Positions 28,412 to 32,772 of a stretch of 50,984 nucleotides of DNA are shown one piece after another. The stretch comes from a phage: sequence record NC_100129.1. One strand, 5' to 3'. Under the pieces are notes generated by a model. It was not told the origin of the DNA and made no database searches. It worked only from the letters and a program-made list of their open reading frames with translations. Position numbers and translations under genes: made by a program. Numbering within the stretch: the first letter of the stretch is position 1; each line of letters opens with the position of its first letter.

Positions 28412-31342
28412 TTAGCCTCGCTTGCTCATAACAAATTCGTAAACTTCGCCGCCCTGCGTACAGGAACGTTTAATCATATCGGTGAAAATCATCTTAACGC
28501 CAGTTTCTATACCTTTCGGATCGCTACCGTTGTTAATATCAACGCTAATACCGCCGATATTGAATTGCGCCGCGCCAGCATTGATGCCACCGCCGCTATA
28601 GCTGGAACCACCAACCACGCCGCCGTTAGCATAACCGCGCATCAACTTGTAAAGGTTGCCGACTCCGATCCGCTTCGTTGCCTCCTTCGTCATGACAAAT
28701 TCACCCTTGTGAACCACTCCAGCCGCTTCATATTTCCCGCCGTCGCCAGTGTAACCGCCATCAGAGAAGCCGCGAGGACGGAATGACGGAACGGGGAATG
28801 ACTGACCAGATCCGCCGCCAGTTTTAGGACTTCCGCTAACCCATCCCATCGCTGCCTGAATTGCGTAGGCAATACTCAACTGCGTAATGATGTTCATAAT
28901 CATTTTGATGATTGAAGATGCGAAGTCTTTAAAACTGCTTTTTCCTGTGCTCAATAGCTCCACAAACTGATCGCTGATTCCGTTTAATGCGTTGGTCATT
29001 ACGTTACCAAATTGACCGCCCAAATCCATAGCCGAATCAATCCAGTTTTTCGTAGAGCGTTCAATCCCTGCGATTGAGTTCATGCTCAACTCATCTTGCA
29101 TTGCGTAGACTTCGTTGATCTTATCAATCATCTCGGCGAGTCTTGCATCAGTAAGCTGACCGCCTTTTGCCAGCCAGTCAGTGACGATGCGTTGCCGTTC
29201 AAGCTCCCTTTGCGTCTCTCGGTCGCTCATGCCTTTTTGCTGTAGCTCAAGCGATTGAAGCGTTTCCTTTTGACGATGCAAGAATTTAATTGATGTATCC
29301 TGCAACTGGATCTGGTCGCCAAGTATAGCCCGCTGCTCTGCCAGCGAAAGGATCTTATCCTTGTTGGCAATAATGCTTTTTTCTTCGTCAGTAAGCTGGC
29401 GTTTCTGTGATGCTTCCTGCAAGACCTGGATTTTTGCTTGCTCAGTCCATAACGCCCGGCGCTGCTGGCTGATTGATGCAATGACAGTTTCGTGCTCCTT
29501 CAATACTCGCAATTGAGTCTCCAGTGCAACAATGTCTCGCTGATACTGATCCTCAATCCTGTCTCCAGCCGACACTTTGACCTTTTGAGAACGTGCTTTG
29601 TCACGCTTCGCCAGTTCTTCGGCCTCTTTCCTGATTGCTTCGCGCGTCTTCTCTGAATACTGCTGCTCTGTCGCCGCGCGTTCACGCATCATTTCAATGT
29701 AACCCATCTCGCCCTTTCTGACTCGCGCGTCGCGTTCTTCGATGGACTTCGCCAGTTCTTCGTTTTCCTTCTTGCTCTTGTCGATGATTTCCTGCTGCTG
29801 CTTGATAAATTCATCGCCAACACCGCTAAGTCCTGGGATGTTCTGCATCGCTTTAGTGGCAGAAATAACAAACTCACCGATCAGAATATCACCCTGATTA
29901 AGCAAGTAGCGAACCTGCTCAACCGTTGCCGCCACAACGTCAGTGATCAGGTTAAGCGCACCAATTGTGTGATCGCCTACCCATCCCCAGGCGTCAGAAG
30001 CCCACTTGCGCACGTCGTCCCACATCTTTTCTAACGGCGTTGCCGAATCGGCAAGGTTGGCAAGGCGTTGCTCCATTACATCGGCGAATAGCTCGGTCGC
30101 CCGTGTTACTGCCGCAGTTTTGCCGCTGGTTTTTTCAAGGTCGGCGATATAGGTTAGCTGTCCTTGTTTCAGGAAGTTAAATTCTTCGTTTAGCTTAGCC
30201 AGACCTTTGACCGGATCATCAGCAATCTTGTTAAAGTATTCCGTAATCTTTCCGCTTGATTCGCCCGTTACCGCTGACCATTGCGCAGTCGTTTTGGTGA
30301 TTGCCCTGATTTGGGTAATCGTAAACTTACCGGATCTTGCAAGCTCGGTTGCAATGTTGCGGATACTTCCAATCGTTGCATTCGTGCTACTGTTGATGTC
30401 CTGCGCCATCTTTTCGAATTGCGCCGCGTTAGTTCCGGCATAACCTCCAGTCAGGACTAACGCCTCATGCAAGTTTCGTTGCGAAGAGTAGGAATCATAA
30501 CCCGCTTTCACCAAAGCACCCAGGGAAACAACAAGCGCACCAACGCCAACATTTACCGGATTAAGGTACGACAACAACGCTTTGAACGTGTTAGAGATTC
30601 CACCGAATGAATCCTTAATCTGCCCGCCCTGCTGGATTGCAACCAACCATACAGGCATACCAGAAGCAAGCGAAGTGACAACATCAGTGATCTGCGCCGG
30701 AAGCATTCTCATAGCCTGCCGATATTGTCCCATTGAGATGCCTAATTTTTGGGCTTGCTTATCCTGCGCTTTCATCTGCGAGATAAATGGCGCTGCCTCA
30801 GCACTTACCCCTAGTTGTGCGGCGCGAATCTCCAGCAATTCCTCTCTGGTTTTCCCTGCTGCCTCAGCTTGCTGTTGCAATGCAGAGATGAATTTACGCG
30901 CCTCAGCCTCTGCACGGGCTTTCTGTTTCGCTTCCTCTGCCGCTGCTCGGCCTTCTTCGGTTAATGCTTTCTTTGTGGCGATCAGCTTATTCTGCTGCGT
31001 TTCCAAGATAGCGCCAAGCTCAAAGAAAGTATCATCAGGCACTACGCCTTTTTTCCAAAGGGAATCAAGCTGTGATGCCGCTTGTCGCAACTTATCCATT
31101 TTTGCCGCTGTCGGATCAATGGAGTCCTGAATTTTTCTAAACTCCGCTCGCTGCCTGCGCAATTCCTCGGCAAGCTGTTTAGCCTGCTGTCGTGCGATTG
31201 CCTCAGTATCAACGAATCCCTCGACGCTGCTCTTTGCGTCGTCGTTGGCCTTCTTGAACTGCTGCAATGATTTAACAGCATTCGTGACCTGCGACACGTC
31301 AACGCCAAGTGTTAAGCCTGCGTATTTATCAGCCATGTTCAT
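28412..31342 (-). CDS. tail tape measure protein
   Basis: 976 aa, long coiled-coil-rich, Gly-rich C-terminus, downstream of G/G-T chaperone. Confidence 0.85.
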   Translation of the reverse strand: MNMADKYAGLTLGVDVSQVTNAVKSLQQFKKANDDAKSSVEGFVDTEAIARQQAKQLAEELRRQRAEFRKIQDSIDPTAAKMDKLRQAASQLDSLWKKGVVPDDTFFELGAILETQQNKLIATKKALTEEGRAAAEEAKQKARAEAEARKFISALQQQAEAAGKTREELLEIRAAQLGVSAEAAPFISQMKAQDKQAQKLGISMGQYRQAMRMLPAQITDVVTSLASGMPVWLVAIQQGGQIKDSFGGISNTFKALLSYLNPVNVGVGALVVSLGALVKAGYDSYSSQRNLHEALVLTGGYAGTNAAQFEKMAQDINSSTNATIGSIRNIATELARSGKFTITQIRAITKTTAQWSAVTGESSGKITEYFNKIADDPVKGLAKLNEEFNFLKQGQLTYIADLEKTSGKTAAVTRATELFADVMEQRLANLADSATPLEKMWDDVRKWASDAWGWVGDHTIGALNLITDVVAATVEQVRYLLNQGDILIGEFVISATKAMQNIPGLSGVGDEFIKQQQEIIDKSKKENEELAKSIEERDARVRKGEMGYIEMMRERAATEQQYSEKTREAIRKEAEELAKRDKARSQKVKVSAGDRIEDQYQRDIVALETQLRVLKEHETVIASISQQRRALWTEQAKIQVLQEASQKRQLTDEEKSIIANKDKILSLAEQRAILGDQIQLQDTSIKFLHRQKETLQSLELQQKGMSDRETQRELERQRIVTDWLAKGGQLTDARLAEMIDKINEVYAMQDELSMNSIAGIERSTKNWIDSAMDLGGQFGNVMTNALNGISDQFVELLSTGKSSFKDFASSIIKMIMNIITQLSIAYAIQAAMGWVSGSPKTGGGSGQSFPVPSFRPRGFSDGGYTGDGGKYEAAGVVHKGEFVMTKEATKRIGVGNLYKLMRGYANGGVVGGSSYSGGGINAGAAQFNIGGISVDINNGSDPKGIETGVKMIFTDMIKRSCTQGGEVYEFVMSKRG

Positions 31343-31355
31343 TTACTCCAGATAT

Positions 31356-31378
31356 TAAAAAAGCGCCCGTAGGCGCTT
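31356..31378 (-). terminator. terminator/attenuator between G-T and tape measure genes
   Basis: AGCGCCCGTAGGCGCT followed by T-run on minus strand. Confidence 0.6.
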
Positions 31379-31384
31379 TGATTG

Positions 31385-32010
31385 CTATTTTTGGTGCATC
31401 ATTTCTAATGCTTTTTGTTCCATGATTCGCAAATCGTTTAAGGCCATTTCTTCATCTTCTATTTTATAGATTCTGAACAACATCGGCAAAACATTATAGT
31501 CAAATCCGTAAGCACCAGATCCGGCGCTTCTCCACTGCGTTTGCATTGCACAAAAAACATCCCATGACTGCATCATGCTTTCATCGAAAATAACCTCCGG
31601 CGGCTCCTCGCCTTCGTAGTCGGCGCGTGTTAATCCGACCGCTTCAAGCTCTGCGTCTGTCGGTGGCTTCTGGTAAAACAGGTAAACCGCGCGCCTTAAC
31701 CCTTTACGCGCTGACCAGCCAGAGCGCCTAAGTAGGATTGAACGAGCGCCAACGCTGACCCAGGGTAATAATCGACTAACAGTTTTGCGTTTTCGTGGTT
31801 AAATTCTTCTTCAAGATCCCAACCCGTCGCAATGTTCATGATAAAGTCAGAATCTTTGATCCCCTCTTTCCGGTAAAGCTCCTGTACTTCCGTCGCTTTC
31901 TTGTGCTTCACGGTGAAAATGATTTTCTGTTCGCTACCGTCAGGCATAACGAAGTTTACTGGTAGCTTGAAGTCCGGCAGTGGGCCAAGTGTTAATTTCA
32001 TCTTTGCCAT
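31385..32010 (-). CDS. tail assembly chaperone G-T fusion via -1 programmed frameshift
   Basis: -1 frame is open from heptamer A_AAG_GGT (31699-31705) through the 31385-31576 ORF; verified by manual translation. Confidence 0.6.
31696..32010 (-). CDS. tail assembly chaperone (gpG-like)
   Basis: 104 aa between major tail and tape measure; ends at slippery site AAAGGGT. Confidence 0.7.
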   Translation of the reverse strand: MAKMKLTLGPLPDFKLPVNFVMPDGSEQKIIFTVKHKKATEVQELYRKEGIKDSDFIMNIATGWDLEEEFNHENAKLLVDYYPGSALALVQSYLGALAGQRVKG

Positions 32011-32026
32011 TTTAATTTCTCCTTAA

Positions 32027-32079: not shown

Positions 32080-32106
32080 CGAAAAAAGGGGCGCAACGCC
32101 CCCTTG
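32080..32106 (-). terminator. terminator after major tail protein gene
   Basis: AAGGGGCGCAACGCCCCTT followed by TTTTTT on minus strand. Confidence 0.75.
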
Positions 32107-32109
32107 TAA

Positions 32110-32772
32110 TTACTGAACATCGGAAGGAAGGAAGGTGAATCGACCTTTCAGAGAAACGGAAAGGGAAACTGTTTCCATTTCGTTGACGGTCGTCTGCGGG
32201 ATCTCGTTAAACGAAAGAACACCAGCCCAGCAACGCATTTCTTTCGCCTTTGGAACGAACATTCGCAACGCCGTAACCTCACCTCCTTCATCAGCTTTTC
32301 GAAGCAATGGATAAATTGGATTATCGAACTCATGCGCGAAAGTGTAGGTAAGAGATACCGCGCTTTTATATGTTGGTAGCTGCTGCTCCTGGTCGTCAGA
32401 TAAACACTGATAAGTGTAATATTGCTGTTCGCCGCCGTCCTGTGACAGATCCTGAACGCATGGAATTTCAACCCATGAATTGATTTTCGCAAACGATGCA
32501 GTACCACCGGAAGGGAAGATATTCTGATCTGTAGTATCAATACCCTCAAGCGTTACGCTAGTTTCTTCGCCATTCTGCTTGACGCGAAGAACGCGATCAA
32601 CCATCTTACCCCATGAGGAAGTAGTGATAATTACATAATCACCTTTCTTAAACTCAGTGCCGCCTGATGCAACTGTAAATACAGGATCTGCTGCGTTAGA
32701 AATAGCCGTTGCTTGCACATCAGTAGCTCGATTGCTTTCAATAAAAATTTGAGAACCGTTAGGAAGGTGCAT
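32110..32772 (-). CDS. major tail protein
   Basis: 220 aa directly upstream of G/G-T; strong terminator hairpin after the gene. Confidence 0.65.
   Translation of the reverse strand: MHLPNGSQIFIESNRATDVQATAISNAADPVFTVASGGTEFKKGDYVIITTSSWGKMVDRVLRVKQNGEETSVTLEGIDTTDQNIFPSGGTASFAKINSWVEIPCVQDLSQDGGEQQYYTYQCLSDDQEQQLPTYKSAVSLTYTFAHEFDNPIYPLLRKADEGGEVTALRMFVPKAKEMRCWAGVLSFNEIPQTTVNEMETVSLSVSLKGRFTFLPSDVQ

What the first reader, a model, noticed from the sequence alone, without database searches (positions are those of the whole stretch)
31385..32010. Canonical -1 programmed frameshift site (A_AAG_GGT) joining tail chaperone G to a T extension
Manual translation shows the G-like ORF ends ...AGQRVKG-stop with heptamer A_AAG_GGT (31699-31705) three codons before the stop. 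The -1 frame is open from that heptamer through the downstream 63-aa ORF (31385-31576), giving a ~200-aa fusion. The G/G-T frameshift upstream of the tape measure gene is a conserved feature of long-tailed phages, so its presence here supports the tail-module annotation.
Basis: partly seen in the sequence, partly recalled or inferred. Interest (0 to 1): 0.4.

Follow-up and report, generated by a model that had tools for sequence, protein, structure and literature searches.

The report
Tail chaperone -1 frameshift site
This is the ordinary programmed -1 ribosomal frameshift that T1-like phages use to make a longer version of their tail assembly chaperone; its only unusual feature is a rare variant of the slippery sequence.

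Summary
On the minus strand, a 104-aa chaperone gene (32010..31696, Pfam Phage_TAC_4) ends GTA-AAG-GGT-TAA. The heptamer A_AAG_GGT is at 31705..31699, directly before the stop. The -1 frame is open from 31798 to 31385, so a shift gives a 208-aa fusion. Its second half is a DUF1799 domain that begins 20 residues upstream of the ATG of the 63-aa ORF.

The two ORFs lie between the tail tube gene and the tape measure gene. The window is a T1-like coliphage (Drexlerviridae, Warwickvirus), 99.7% identical over a 1-kb query to phage WaterSpirit. In over 100 related phage sequences, T is in the -1 frame and a Lys slip site sits at the same position.

Most relatives carry A_AAA_AAC. Only this subclade (six GenBank phages) carries A_AAG_GGT. 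Other clades have only A_AAA or A_AAG followed by an unrelated codon. The invariant signal is therefore A_AAR (Lys), one codon, then a stop.

Published E. coli reporter data give similar low shiftiness for both heptamers. A downstream hairpin predicted in many relatives is absent here.

The frameshift is already annotated or mentioned for T1-like phages U136B and Stevie. This is a known mechanism with a minor variant site, and interest is low.

The parts
32110..32772 (-). Major tail (tube) protein gene, directly upstream of the chaperone genes
   Evidence: Pfam Phage_tail_3 1.1e-64 and PHROG 584 'major tail protein' 1.3e-95.
32085..32105 (-). Terminator-like hairpin plus T run between the tube gene and G
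   Evidence: Consensus scan: 9-pair stem with 6 GC pairs, followed by a T run. Function not tested.
32019..32024 (-). Shine-Dalgarno-like AAGGAG, 8 nt upstream of the G start codon
   Evidence: Read directly from the sequence.
31696..32010 (-). G-like tail assembly chaperone gene, 104 aa, zero frame, including the stop TAA at 31698..31696
   Evidence: ORF list and translation. Pfam Phage_TAC_4 2.9e-35 over residues 1-103.
31699..31705 (-). Slippery heptamer A_AAG_GGT, covering the last two sense codons of G. The A_AAG part is the family-invariant Lys slip site.
   Evidence: Sequence. Homologous position holds A_AAA_AAC in most relatives and A_AAR plus another codon in the rest. A37-A39 are invariant columns in alignment A1 although the preceding codon changes between GTA and GCA.
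31696..31698 (-). Zero-frame stop TAA, immediately 3' of the heptamer
   Evidence: A stop (TAA or TGA) directly follows the slip site plus one codon in every intact relative examined.
31385..31699 (-). T extension in the -1 frame: 104 codons starting with TTA at 31699, plus the stop TAG at 31387..31385. The G-T fusion is complement(join(31385..31699, 31699..32010)), 208 aa.
   Evidence: Open -1 frame. Pfam DUF1799 matches fusion residues 126-205. PHROG 17368 and 680 also match. Third-codon-position diversity is about twice that of positions 1 and 2 in this frame, both upstream and downstream of the internal ATG.
31385..31576 (-). The 63-aa ORF as a gene caller sees it. It is only the ATG-initiated tail end of the T extension.
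   Evidence: ORF list. There is no ATG, GTG or TTG in this frame between 31798 and 31577, and GGAGG lies 16 nt from the ATG. The Met is Thr in 30 of 96 distinct relatives.
31360..31379 (-). Terminator-like hairpin plus T run between the T stop and the tape measure gene
   Evidence: Consensus scan. The same hairpin sequence is present in U136B. Function not tested.
28412..31342 (-). Tape measure protein gene. The likely true start is ATG 31336.
   Evidence: Pfam TMP_2 3.3e-65 and Tape_meas_lam_C 1.1e-18; PHROG 24. Start inferred from GGAG spacing in the sequence and from the WaterSpirit annotation.

Best explanation
A small fraction of ribosomes translating the tail assembly chaperone gene (G-like, 32010..31696, minus strand) slip back one nucleotide on A_AAG_GGU (31705..31699), just before the stop codon. 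The Lys-tRNA moves from AAG to AAA. The Gly-tRNA may also move from GGU to GGG. Reading then continues with UUA in the -1 frame to 31385.

The product is a 208-aa G-T fusion, ...QRVKG-LRRAVYLFYQKPP..., made alongside abundant 104-aa G. By analogy with lambda gpG/gpGT, the shared G part binds the tape measure protein. The T part (DUF1799) recruits the tube protein, so that the tail polymerises to the right length. Neither protein is expected in the virion.

Shown here: the sequence anatomy, the protein families, the lack of an independent start for T, coding constraint in the -1 frame, and conservation of the site across the family. Inferred: that the shift actually occurs, its efficiency, which tRNAs slip, and the assembly role.
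For: Anatomy
- The heptamer, the adjacent stop and the open -1 frame are all present.

Gene context and protein families
- The order is tube protein, G, T, tape measure protein, with Phage_TAC_4 and DUF1799 domains.
- A single PHROG profile spans both halves.

T cannot be made on its own
- There is no ATG, GTG or TTG in the -1 frame upstream of 31576, and GGAGG lies 16 nt from that ATG.
- DUF1799 starts 20 residues upstream of the ATG.
- The Met is replaced by Thr in 30 of 96 distinct relatives.
- The 41 codons before the ATG show nucleotide diversity of 10.8, 9.6 and 21.9 at codon positions 1, 2 and 3 in the -1 frame, which is the signature of coding sequence.

Conservation
- T is in the -1 frame in all intact relatives: 36 of 38 loci from BLAST and viral-contig searches and 78 of 81 protein-seeded loci.
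- In some relatives the G/T overlap is only 28-31 nt, which confines the shift to the last 8 or so codons of G.
- At the homologous position the sequence is A_AAA_AAC in most relatives and A_AAG_GGT in six Warwickvirus phages.
- The A before the Lys codon is invariant even though that codon alternates between GTA and GCA.

Published support
- E. coli reporter data: AAAGGGU gives 0.134, 0.368 and 1.598% frameshifting with no stimulator, the IS911 stimulators and the IS3 pseudoknot. AAAAAAC gives 0.163, 0.189 and 0.739%. Both are depleted in this phase in E. coli genes (z = -10.05 and -6.74) (PMC4066793, Table S3).
- The frameshift is annotated for U136B and mentioned for the T1-like phage Stevie (PMC4319613).
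- The lambda mechanism is summarised in PMC5009743.
Against: - There is no direct evidence of the fusion protein for this phage or, as far as I found, for any T1-like phage.
- The heptamer is intrinsically weak in reporters, at 0.13% unstimulated, which is about 2-3 times background.
- I found no convincing stimulator in the window. The 50 nt downstream fold no better than shuffles (z = -0.15, 81 of 200 shuffles as good). The 110 nt downstream give z = -1.0. No SD-like GGAG, GAGG or AGGA lies within 25 nt upstream.
- The heptamer pattern alone has about an 8.5% chance of occurring somewhere in the overlap.
- Sister clades lacking any heptamer (A_AAA_GTT, A_AAG_GTC, A_AAG_CCC, A_AAA_GCC) show that tandem two-tRNA slippage is not required in the family. 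The role of GGT here is therefore uncertain.
Confidence: 0.85

Rival explanations
1. The event is the same -1 shift, but only one tRNA slips. The Lys-tRNA(UUU) moves from AAG to AAA on the tetramer A_AAG. The following GGT codon plays no part, so the heptamer form is incidental. The adjacent stop codon may be part of the signal. The protein product is identical (V-K-G-L-R-R).
For: - In 14 of 78 intact protein-seeded relatives the codon after A_AAR cannot re-pair: GTT, GTC, CCC or GCC. T is still in the -1 frame and still conserved in these.
- A_AAG is by far the most shift-prone tetramer in E. coli, at 5.6% with a pseudoknot (Sharma et al. 2014, and Table S2).
- 'One codon, then a stop' is invariant across the family.
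Against: - 64 of 78 relatives, plus this clade, do satisfy X_XXY_YYZ. Chance would give about 1 in 16 for the second triplet, which suggests the heptamer form is favoured.
- Tetramers without a stimulator are barely above background in reporters, and no stimulator is evident in the window.
Confidence: 0.35
2. There is no frameshift. The 63-aa ORF (31576..31385) is translated independently from its own ATG as a separate small protein.
For: - Gene callers annotate it this way in WaterSpirit, BEK12A and many other records.
- An ATG exists, with a GGAGG 16 nt upstream.
Against: - The 41 codons upstream of the ATG are conserved as protein in the -1 frame, with variation concentrated at the third codon position.
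- The DUF1799 domain and PHROG profiles extend upstream of the ATG.
- The Met is Thr in 30 of 96 distinct relatives.
- The SD spacing is too long, and there is no other start codon in the frame.
Confidence: 0.04
3. The extra base comes from RNA polymerase slippage, not from the ribosome. An inserted nucleotide in the mRNA would put T in frame.
For: Most relatives carry a run of six A (A_AAA_AAC), a sequence type on which low-level transcriptional slippage is conceivable. Slippage on A runs is reviewed in PMC5009743.
Against: - The window has only A3 followed by G3, and other clades have A4 or A3. These runs are too short for known polymerase slippage, which is established for runs of roughly 7 or more.
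- The conserved feature is the Lys codon in a fixed phase, which matters to ribosomes but not to RNA polymerase.
Confidence: 0.02
4. The shift occurs elsewhere in the 103-nt overlap, at one of the other in-phase shifty tetramers: A_AAC at 31792, A_AAA at 31786 or C_CCT at 31765.
For: These in-phase tetramers exist, and the -1 frame is open from 31798.
Against: - In relatives the -1 frame is open for only 28-43 nt before the G stop, which excludes these positions.
- A shift there would delete the conserved C-terminal third of G and add non-conserved residues.
- PHROG 17368 joins G at about residue 107 to T at about residue 109.
Confidence: 0.02

Closest known systems
Phage lambda gpG/gpGT tail assembly chaperone frameshift (Levin, Hendrix and Casjens 1993; Xu, Hendrix and Duda 2004, 2013, 2014), as summarised in PMC5009743
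   Same: - Two overlapping ORFs lie between the major tail protein gene and the tape measure gene.
- The second ORF is in the -1 frame and has no start of its own.
- The slip site is near the end of the first ORF.
- The expected outcome is a low-level fusion product that shares its N-terminal part with the abundant short protein.
   Different: - Lambda uses the efficient heptamer G_GGA_AAG, with a G:GT ratio of about 30:1. This window has A_AAG_GGU, which is more than 10-fold weaker in E. coli reporters with stimulators.
- The proteins belong to other Pfam families (Phage_TAC_4 and DUF1799). No lambda G or T family scored at E <= 0.01.
- Here the stop codon abuts the heptamer.
Tape measure chaperone frameshift of other T1-like phages (Drexlerviridae), for example the U136B joined CDS QRV71246.1 and Stevie (PMC4319613)
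   Same: The genes are homologous (about 79% nucleotide identity to U136B). The gene order, the -1 frame and the slip position (the last two codons of G, followed directly by a stop) are the same.
   Different: - Those phages carry A_AAA_AAC. Many of them also have a predicted hairpin, GGGCGGUUU...AARCCGCCC, starting 6-7 nt downstream (dG -14 to -19 kcal/mol, z -3.8 to -5).
- The window's subclade has A_AAG_GGT and has lost that hairpin (z = -0.15).
- The junction residues also differ: K-G-L-R-R here, against K-N-L-K-R if the AAC codon is decoded before the slip.
IS1 insA-insB' frameshift on A_AAA_AAC, and the X_XXZ_ZZN motif survey in E. coli (Sharma et al. 2014, PMC4066793)
   Same: This is low-efficiency -1 slippage on a purine-only heptamer. 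For IS1, no stimulator has been established either. A_AAG_GGU is one of the 64 motifs measured in that survey.
   Different: IS1 is a transposase gene, not a phage tail gene. The paper lists one A_AAG_GGT gene cluster in enterobacteria (yaiS), which is unrelated to phage tails.

Membership tests
G/GT-type tail assembly chaperone programmed -1 frameshift (lambda paradigm; Xu et al. 2004) | Two ORFs lie between the major tail (tube) protein gene and the tape measure protein gene | tested here: met
   Phage_tail_3 at 32772..32110, G at 32010..31696, T ending at 31385, tape measure protein from 31342 or 31336.
G/GT-type tail assembly chaperone programmed -1 frameshift (lambda paradigm; Xu et al. 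2004) | The second ORF overlaps the first in the -1 frame and has no translation start of its own for its conserved N-terminal part | tested here: met
   The -1 frame is open from 31798 to 31385. There is no ATG, GTG or TTG before 31576. The 41 upstream codons are under coding constraint, and the Met is not conserved.
G/GT-type tail assembly chaperone programmed -1 frameshift (lambda paradigm; Xu et al. 2004) | A slippery sequence lies in the overlap, near the end of the first ORF, and is conserved in position among relatives | tested here: met
   A_AAG_GGT at 31705..31699. The same position holds A_AAA_AAC or A_AAR plus another codon in more than 100 relatives.
G/GT-type tail assembly chaperone programmed -1 frameshift (lambda paradigm; Xu et al. 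2004) | The fusion protein is actually made at a low, fixed ratio and is required for tail assembly | not testable with these tools
   This needs mass spectrometry or western blotting, plus phage genetics.
Pfam Phage_TAC_4 (PF08748) plus DUF1799 (PF08809) chaperone pair | Scores above the curated Pfam gathering thresholds | tested here: met
   Phage_TAC_4 scores 121.6 bits against a cut-off of 21.1. DUF1799 scores 45.5 bits against a cut-off of 26.
Lambda gpG / gpT sequence families | Detectable sequence similarity to the lambda G and T Pfam families | tested here: not met
   Only Phage_TAC_4 and DUF1799 scored at E <= 0.01. No solved structure matched below E = 0.47. The relationship to lambda is functional analogy or distant homology only.
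X_XXY_YYZ tandem-slippage heptamer | The pattern is in the correct phase and allows both tRNAs to re-pair at their first two positions | tested here: met
   Zero-frame codons are GTA AAG GGT. After the shift AAG reads as AAA and GGT as GGG. Measured shiftiness in E. coli is 0.13-1.6%.
X_XXY_YYZ tandem-slippage heptamer | Both the P-site and the A-site tRNA actually slip | not testable with these tools
   Sister clades without a second re-pairing triplet make this doubtful. Mutational reporter assays are needed.
Stimulated -1 frameshift signal (downstream hairpin or pseudoknot 5-9 nt after the heptamer) | A stable downstream structure, better than shuffled controls, at the right spacing | tested here: not met
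   Window: dG = -9 kcal/mol, z = -0.15 over 50 nt; z = -1.0 over 110 nt. Relatives of the T1, Tls and PHB17 types do have such a structure (z about -5). Covariation support for it is weak: one compensatory pair, and 22 of 500 shuffles reach the observed score.
dnaX / IS911-type upstream Shine-Dalgarno stimulator | An SD-like element about 10-14 nt upstream of the slip site | tested here: not met
   The upstream 25 nt, CTTAGGCGCTCTGGCTGGTCAGCGCGT, contain no GGAG, GAGG or AGGA.

The most novel reading that the evidence does not exclude
In Drexlerviridae the real, family-wide frameshift signal may not be a heptamer. It may be 'A_AAR (Lys), one arbitrary sense codon, then a stop codon'. Under this reading the heptamer form and the downstream hairpin are optional, clade-specific enhancers that have been gained, swapped (A_AAA_AAC to A_AAG_GGT) and lost repeatedly.

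The window's subclade, with a new heptamer and no hairpin, would then be one point in a natural series for testing two questions in E. coli. How little sequence suffices for a biologically adequate -1 frameshift? Does a stop codon one codon downstream of the slipping tRNA act as a stimulator?
Probability: 0.3. Interest if true: 0.45.

Novelty: new member of a known kind. Interest (0 to 1): 0.2.

Why it matters
For annotation, the two small ORFs should be joined as complement(join(31385..31699, 31699..32010)) and named tail assembly chaperone G and G-T. None of the six closest GenBank genomes does this. Several label both ORFs 'tail length tape measure protein'.

Biologically this is the expected mechanism for a long-tailed phage, so it only confirms the tail module.

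The modest point of wider interest is evolutionary. Within one phage family the slip site has turned over (A_AAA_AAC, A_AAG_GGT, A_AAA_GTT, A_AAG_GTC and others), while its position, the Lys codon and the adjacent stop stayed fixed. Published reporter data show the two heptamers are about equally weak, which would make the swap near-neutral.

Tried and rejected
- **Downstream stimulatory structure in the window.** Folding 50 nt and 110 nt gave nothing better than shuffled sequences.
- **Covariation test of the hairpin seen in relatives.** It is 83% paired, but with only one compensatory change, and 22 of 500 shuffles scored as high. The result is inconclusive. The hairpin is also absent from several clades.
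- **Substitution hot spot at the slip site, as a sign of a recombination patch.** The 20-nt core differs at 7 positions against about 20% divergence in the flanks. This is not a clear excess.
- **Homologue search with the fusion protein in the 5.8-billion-protein set.** It returned only two T-frame ORFs of 123 and 136 aa and no full-length fusions. I attribute this to the tool's word-based seeding; I did not check that. It was uninformative.
- **Scan of bacterial genome contigs.** Only two hits appeared, both looking like phage contigs inside assemblies, so there is no prophage diversity to exploit.
- **Solved-structure search by sequence.** No meaningful hit.
- **Structure prediction.** Not attempted. 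The alignment I held came from loci that the tool does not accept, and a fold would not bear on the frameshift question.
- **Other in-phase shifty tetramers in the overlap.** Rejected because the overlap is only 28-43 nt in relatives.

Full report
**1. What is in the sequence**

All the genes concerned are on the minus strand. A 104-aa ORF runs from 32010 to 31696 and ends ...GCT GGT CAG CGC GTA AAG GGT TAA, which reads ...A G Q R V K G stop. The heptamer A_AAG_GGT lies at 31705..31699, in the X_XXY_YYZ phase. The stop codon TAA (31698..31696) follows it directly.

The -1 frame has no stop codon from 31798 down to the TAG at 31387..31385, and it contains the 63-aa ORF 31576..31385. A -1 shift on the heptamer gives a 208-aa protein with the junction ...QRVKG|LRRAVYLFYQKPPTDAELEAV.... 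The junction sequence is the same whichever tRNA slips, because GGT and GGG both encode Gly.

**2. Could it be chance?**

In-phase X_XXY_YYZ heptamers occur at 32 of 11,874 codon positions in the window's long ORFs, or 0.27%. That gives about an 8.5% chance of at least one in the 33-codon overlap and about 0.3% at this exact place. The pattern alone is only suggestive, so the case rests on context and comparison.

**3. Gene context and protein families**

- The ORF upstream (32772..32110) is a tail tube protein (Pfam Phage_tail_3, 1e-64).
- The ORF downstream (31342 or 31336 to 28412) is a tape measure protein (TMP_2, 3e-65; Tape_meas_lam_C, 1e-18).
- The 104-aa ORF is Phage_TAC_4 (3e-35).
- The -1 extension is DUF1799 (9e-12), matching fusion residues 126-205. 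The domain therefore begins 20 residues upstream of the ATG of the 63-aa ORF.
- PHROG 17368, a 213-position profile, matches G on positions 1-107 and T on positions 109-211. Joined proteins of this kind are thus already in public collections.

**4. T cannot be made on its own**

- There is no ATG, GTG or TTG in the -1 frame between 31798 and 31577. The only SD-like GGAGG is 16 nt from ATG 31576.
- Across 96 distinct relatives, the 41 codons upstream of that ATG have summed nucleotide diversity of 10.8, 9.6 and 21.9 at codon positions 1, 2 and 3 of the -1 frame. This is the signature of a translated region.
- The Met itself is Thr in 30 of the 96 relatives.

**5. Identity of the window and its relatives**

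A 1-kb query spanning the region is 99.7% identical to Escherichia phage WaterSpirit (Drexlerviridae, Tempevirinae, Warwickvirus). By blastn, 443 phage records hold the G-T region. I examined three sets of relatives:

- 38 loci taken from GenBank and IMG/VR;
- 98 IMG/VR contigs found with a DNA pattern;
- 81 loci seeded by protein similarity.

T is in the -1 frame in every intact case. The few exceptions have A5 in place of A6 at the slip site and look like homopolymer miscalls.

In some Tunavirus genomes the overlap of the two frames is only 28-31 nt, so the shift must occur in the last 8 or so codons of G. Phage U136B carries an annotated joined 'frameshift product' at exactly this place. 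[quoted passage not shown]

**6. The slip site varies within the family**

Counts at the homologous position in the protein-seeded sample:

| Sequence at the slip position | Loci |
|---|---|
| A_AAA_AAC | 64 |
| A_AAA_GTT | 7 |
| A_AAG_GTC | 5 |
| A_AAG_CCC | 1 |
| A_AAA_GCC | 1 |
| Broken (frame disrupted) | 3 |

In every intact locus a TAA or TGA stop follows directly.

The window's A_AAG_GGT occurs only in six GenBank Warwickvirus phages: WaterSpirit, BabyEgg, BEBK14, BEK12A, BEK26 and MatMar. Another Warwickvirus, swan01, has A_AAA_AAC.

What never changes is an A, then a Lys codon AAR, then one sense codon, then a stop. The A is invariant even where the codon holding it switches between GTA and GCA.

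Two conclusions follow. Second, because whole clades manage without a re-pairing second triplet, the essential event is probably slippage of the single E. coli Lys-tRNA(UUU) from AAR to AAA. That this tRNA is shift-prone is established knowledge and is discussed in PMC4066793 and PMC5009743.

**7. How strong is the site?**

Table S3 of Sharma et al. 2014 gives measured -1 frameshifting in E. coli under three conditions: no stimulator, the IS911 stimulators, and the IS3 pseudoknot.

| Motif | No stimulator | IS911 | IS3 pseudoknot | z-score in this phase |
|---|---|---|---|---|
| AAAGGGU | 0.134% | 0.368% | 1.598% | -10.05 |
| AAAAAAC | 0.163% | 0.189% | 0.739% | -6.74 |
| GGGAAAG (lambda) | 0.277% | 3.8% | 43% | -2.02 |

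The negative z-scores for AAAGGGU and AAAAAAC mean both are depleted in this phase in E. coli genes. The window's motif is 'canonical' in form but weak, and about as good as the family's usual one. The swap therefore looks near-neutral.

**8. Stimulators**

Many relatives carrying A_AAA_AAC have a predicted hairpin, GGGCGGUUU...AARCCGCCC, starting 6-7 nt after the heptamer. Its dG is -14 to -19 kcal/mol and its z-score is -3.8 to -5, with at most 1 of 200 shuffles folding as well. Covariation support for it is weak: one compensatory pair, with 22 of 500 shuffles scoring as high. It is also missing from several clades.

In the window the hairpin is disrupted by changes in both arms. The 50 nt downstream give dG = -9 kcal/mol and z = -0.15. 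The 110 nt downstream give z = -1.0. No SD-like element lies upstream. The only candidate extra element in the window is the abutting stop codon, which I could not test.

**9. Mechanism and comparison with known systems**

The best explanation is the classical G/GT mechanism. G is abundant. A minor fraction of ribosomes make G-T through the -1 shift. The G part binds the tape measure protein and the T part recruits the tube protein (lambda model, PMC5009743).

The window meets every sequence-level criterion of that class. It is not detectably related in sequence to lambda G or T and has no match to a solved structure.

I rate the rivals as unlikely to very unlikely: independent initiation of T, RNA polymerase slippage (the runs here are only A3 and G3), and a shift elsewhere in the overlap. 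The live question is whether one tRNA or two slip.

**10. Verdict**

The finding is real and correctly interpreted, but it is ordinary. It is a known, conserved recoding event in a family where it has already been annotated. The minor novelty is the rare heptamer variant together with loss of the hairpin seen in relatives. Its practical value is correcting the annotation: join the two ORFs and rename them as chaperones.

Noticed in passing
window 32085..32105 and 31360..31379 (minus strand): Two terminator-like GC hairpins with T runs bracket the G-T cassette. One follows the tube protein gene and one lies between the T stop and the tape measure gene. The second is also present in U136B. They may tune the relative expression of tube protein, chaperones and tape measure protein.
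   Followed up: partly
window 31336..31342 (minus strand): The tape measure gene probably starts at ATG 31336, not ATG 31342. GGAG at 31349..31346 is 9 nt from 31336, and the WaterSpirit annotation uses that start.
   Followed up: partly
L002, L004, L024 and similar loci, 6-45 nt after the slip site: Many T1-, Tls- and PHB17-type relatives have a strong predicted hairpin, GGGCGGUUU...AARCCGCCC, at the ideal spacing for a -1 frameshift stimulator (z about -5). It is absent from the window's clade and several others. Covariation support is weak.
   Followed up: yes
L040, L048, L060, L073, L139, L203, L211, L212 (homologous slip position): Whole Drexlerviridae clades have no X_XXY_YYZ heptamer anywhere in the G/T overlap. 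They have only A_AAA or A_AAG followed by GTT, GTC, GCC or CCC and then a stop. This implies single-tRNA Lys slippage, or some signal not yet understood.
   Followed up: partly
L023/L179 (IMGVR_UViG_2974632794) and L033 (phage 2725-N35, MN840485); L171 and L194 not inspected: L023/L179 and L033 have five A instead of six at the slip site. This fuses G to the wrong frame and produces an odd 117-aa 'tail assembly chaperone' annotation in 2725-N35. These are most likely homopolymer sequencing errors. L171 and L194 also come out with T in the wrong frame, but I did not look at their slip sites.
   Followed up: partly
GenBank hits H21, H26, H29, H30: Records named 'Streptococcus phage MBBL140' and 19 'Campylobacter phage' entries carry G-T genes 75-79% identical to this coliphage. 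They look like T1-like coliphage contaminants or host mislabels.
   Followed up: no
L138 (Nitratidesulfovibrio liaohensis assembly) and L139 (Fibrobacter MAG): T1-like phage contigs sit inside bacterial genome assemblies of unlikely hosts. This is probably contamination or binning error.
   Followed up: no
L001 and other records that carry this label: Both chaperone ORFs are labelled 'tail length tape measure protein' in several public records, the same name the PHROG families carry. None of the six closest genomes joins the two ORFs.
   Followed up: yes
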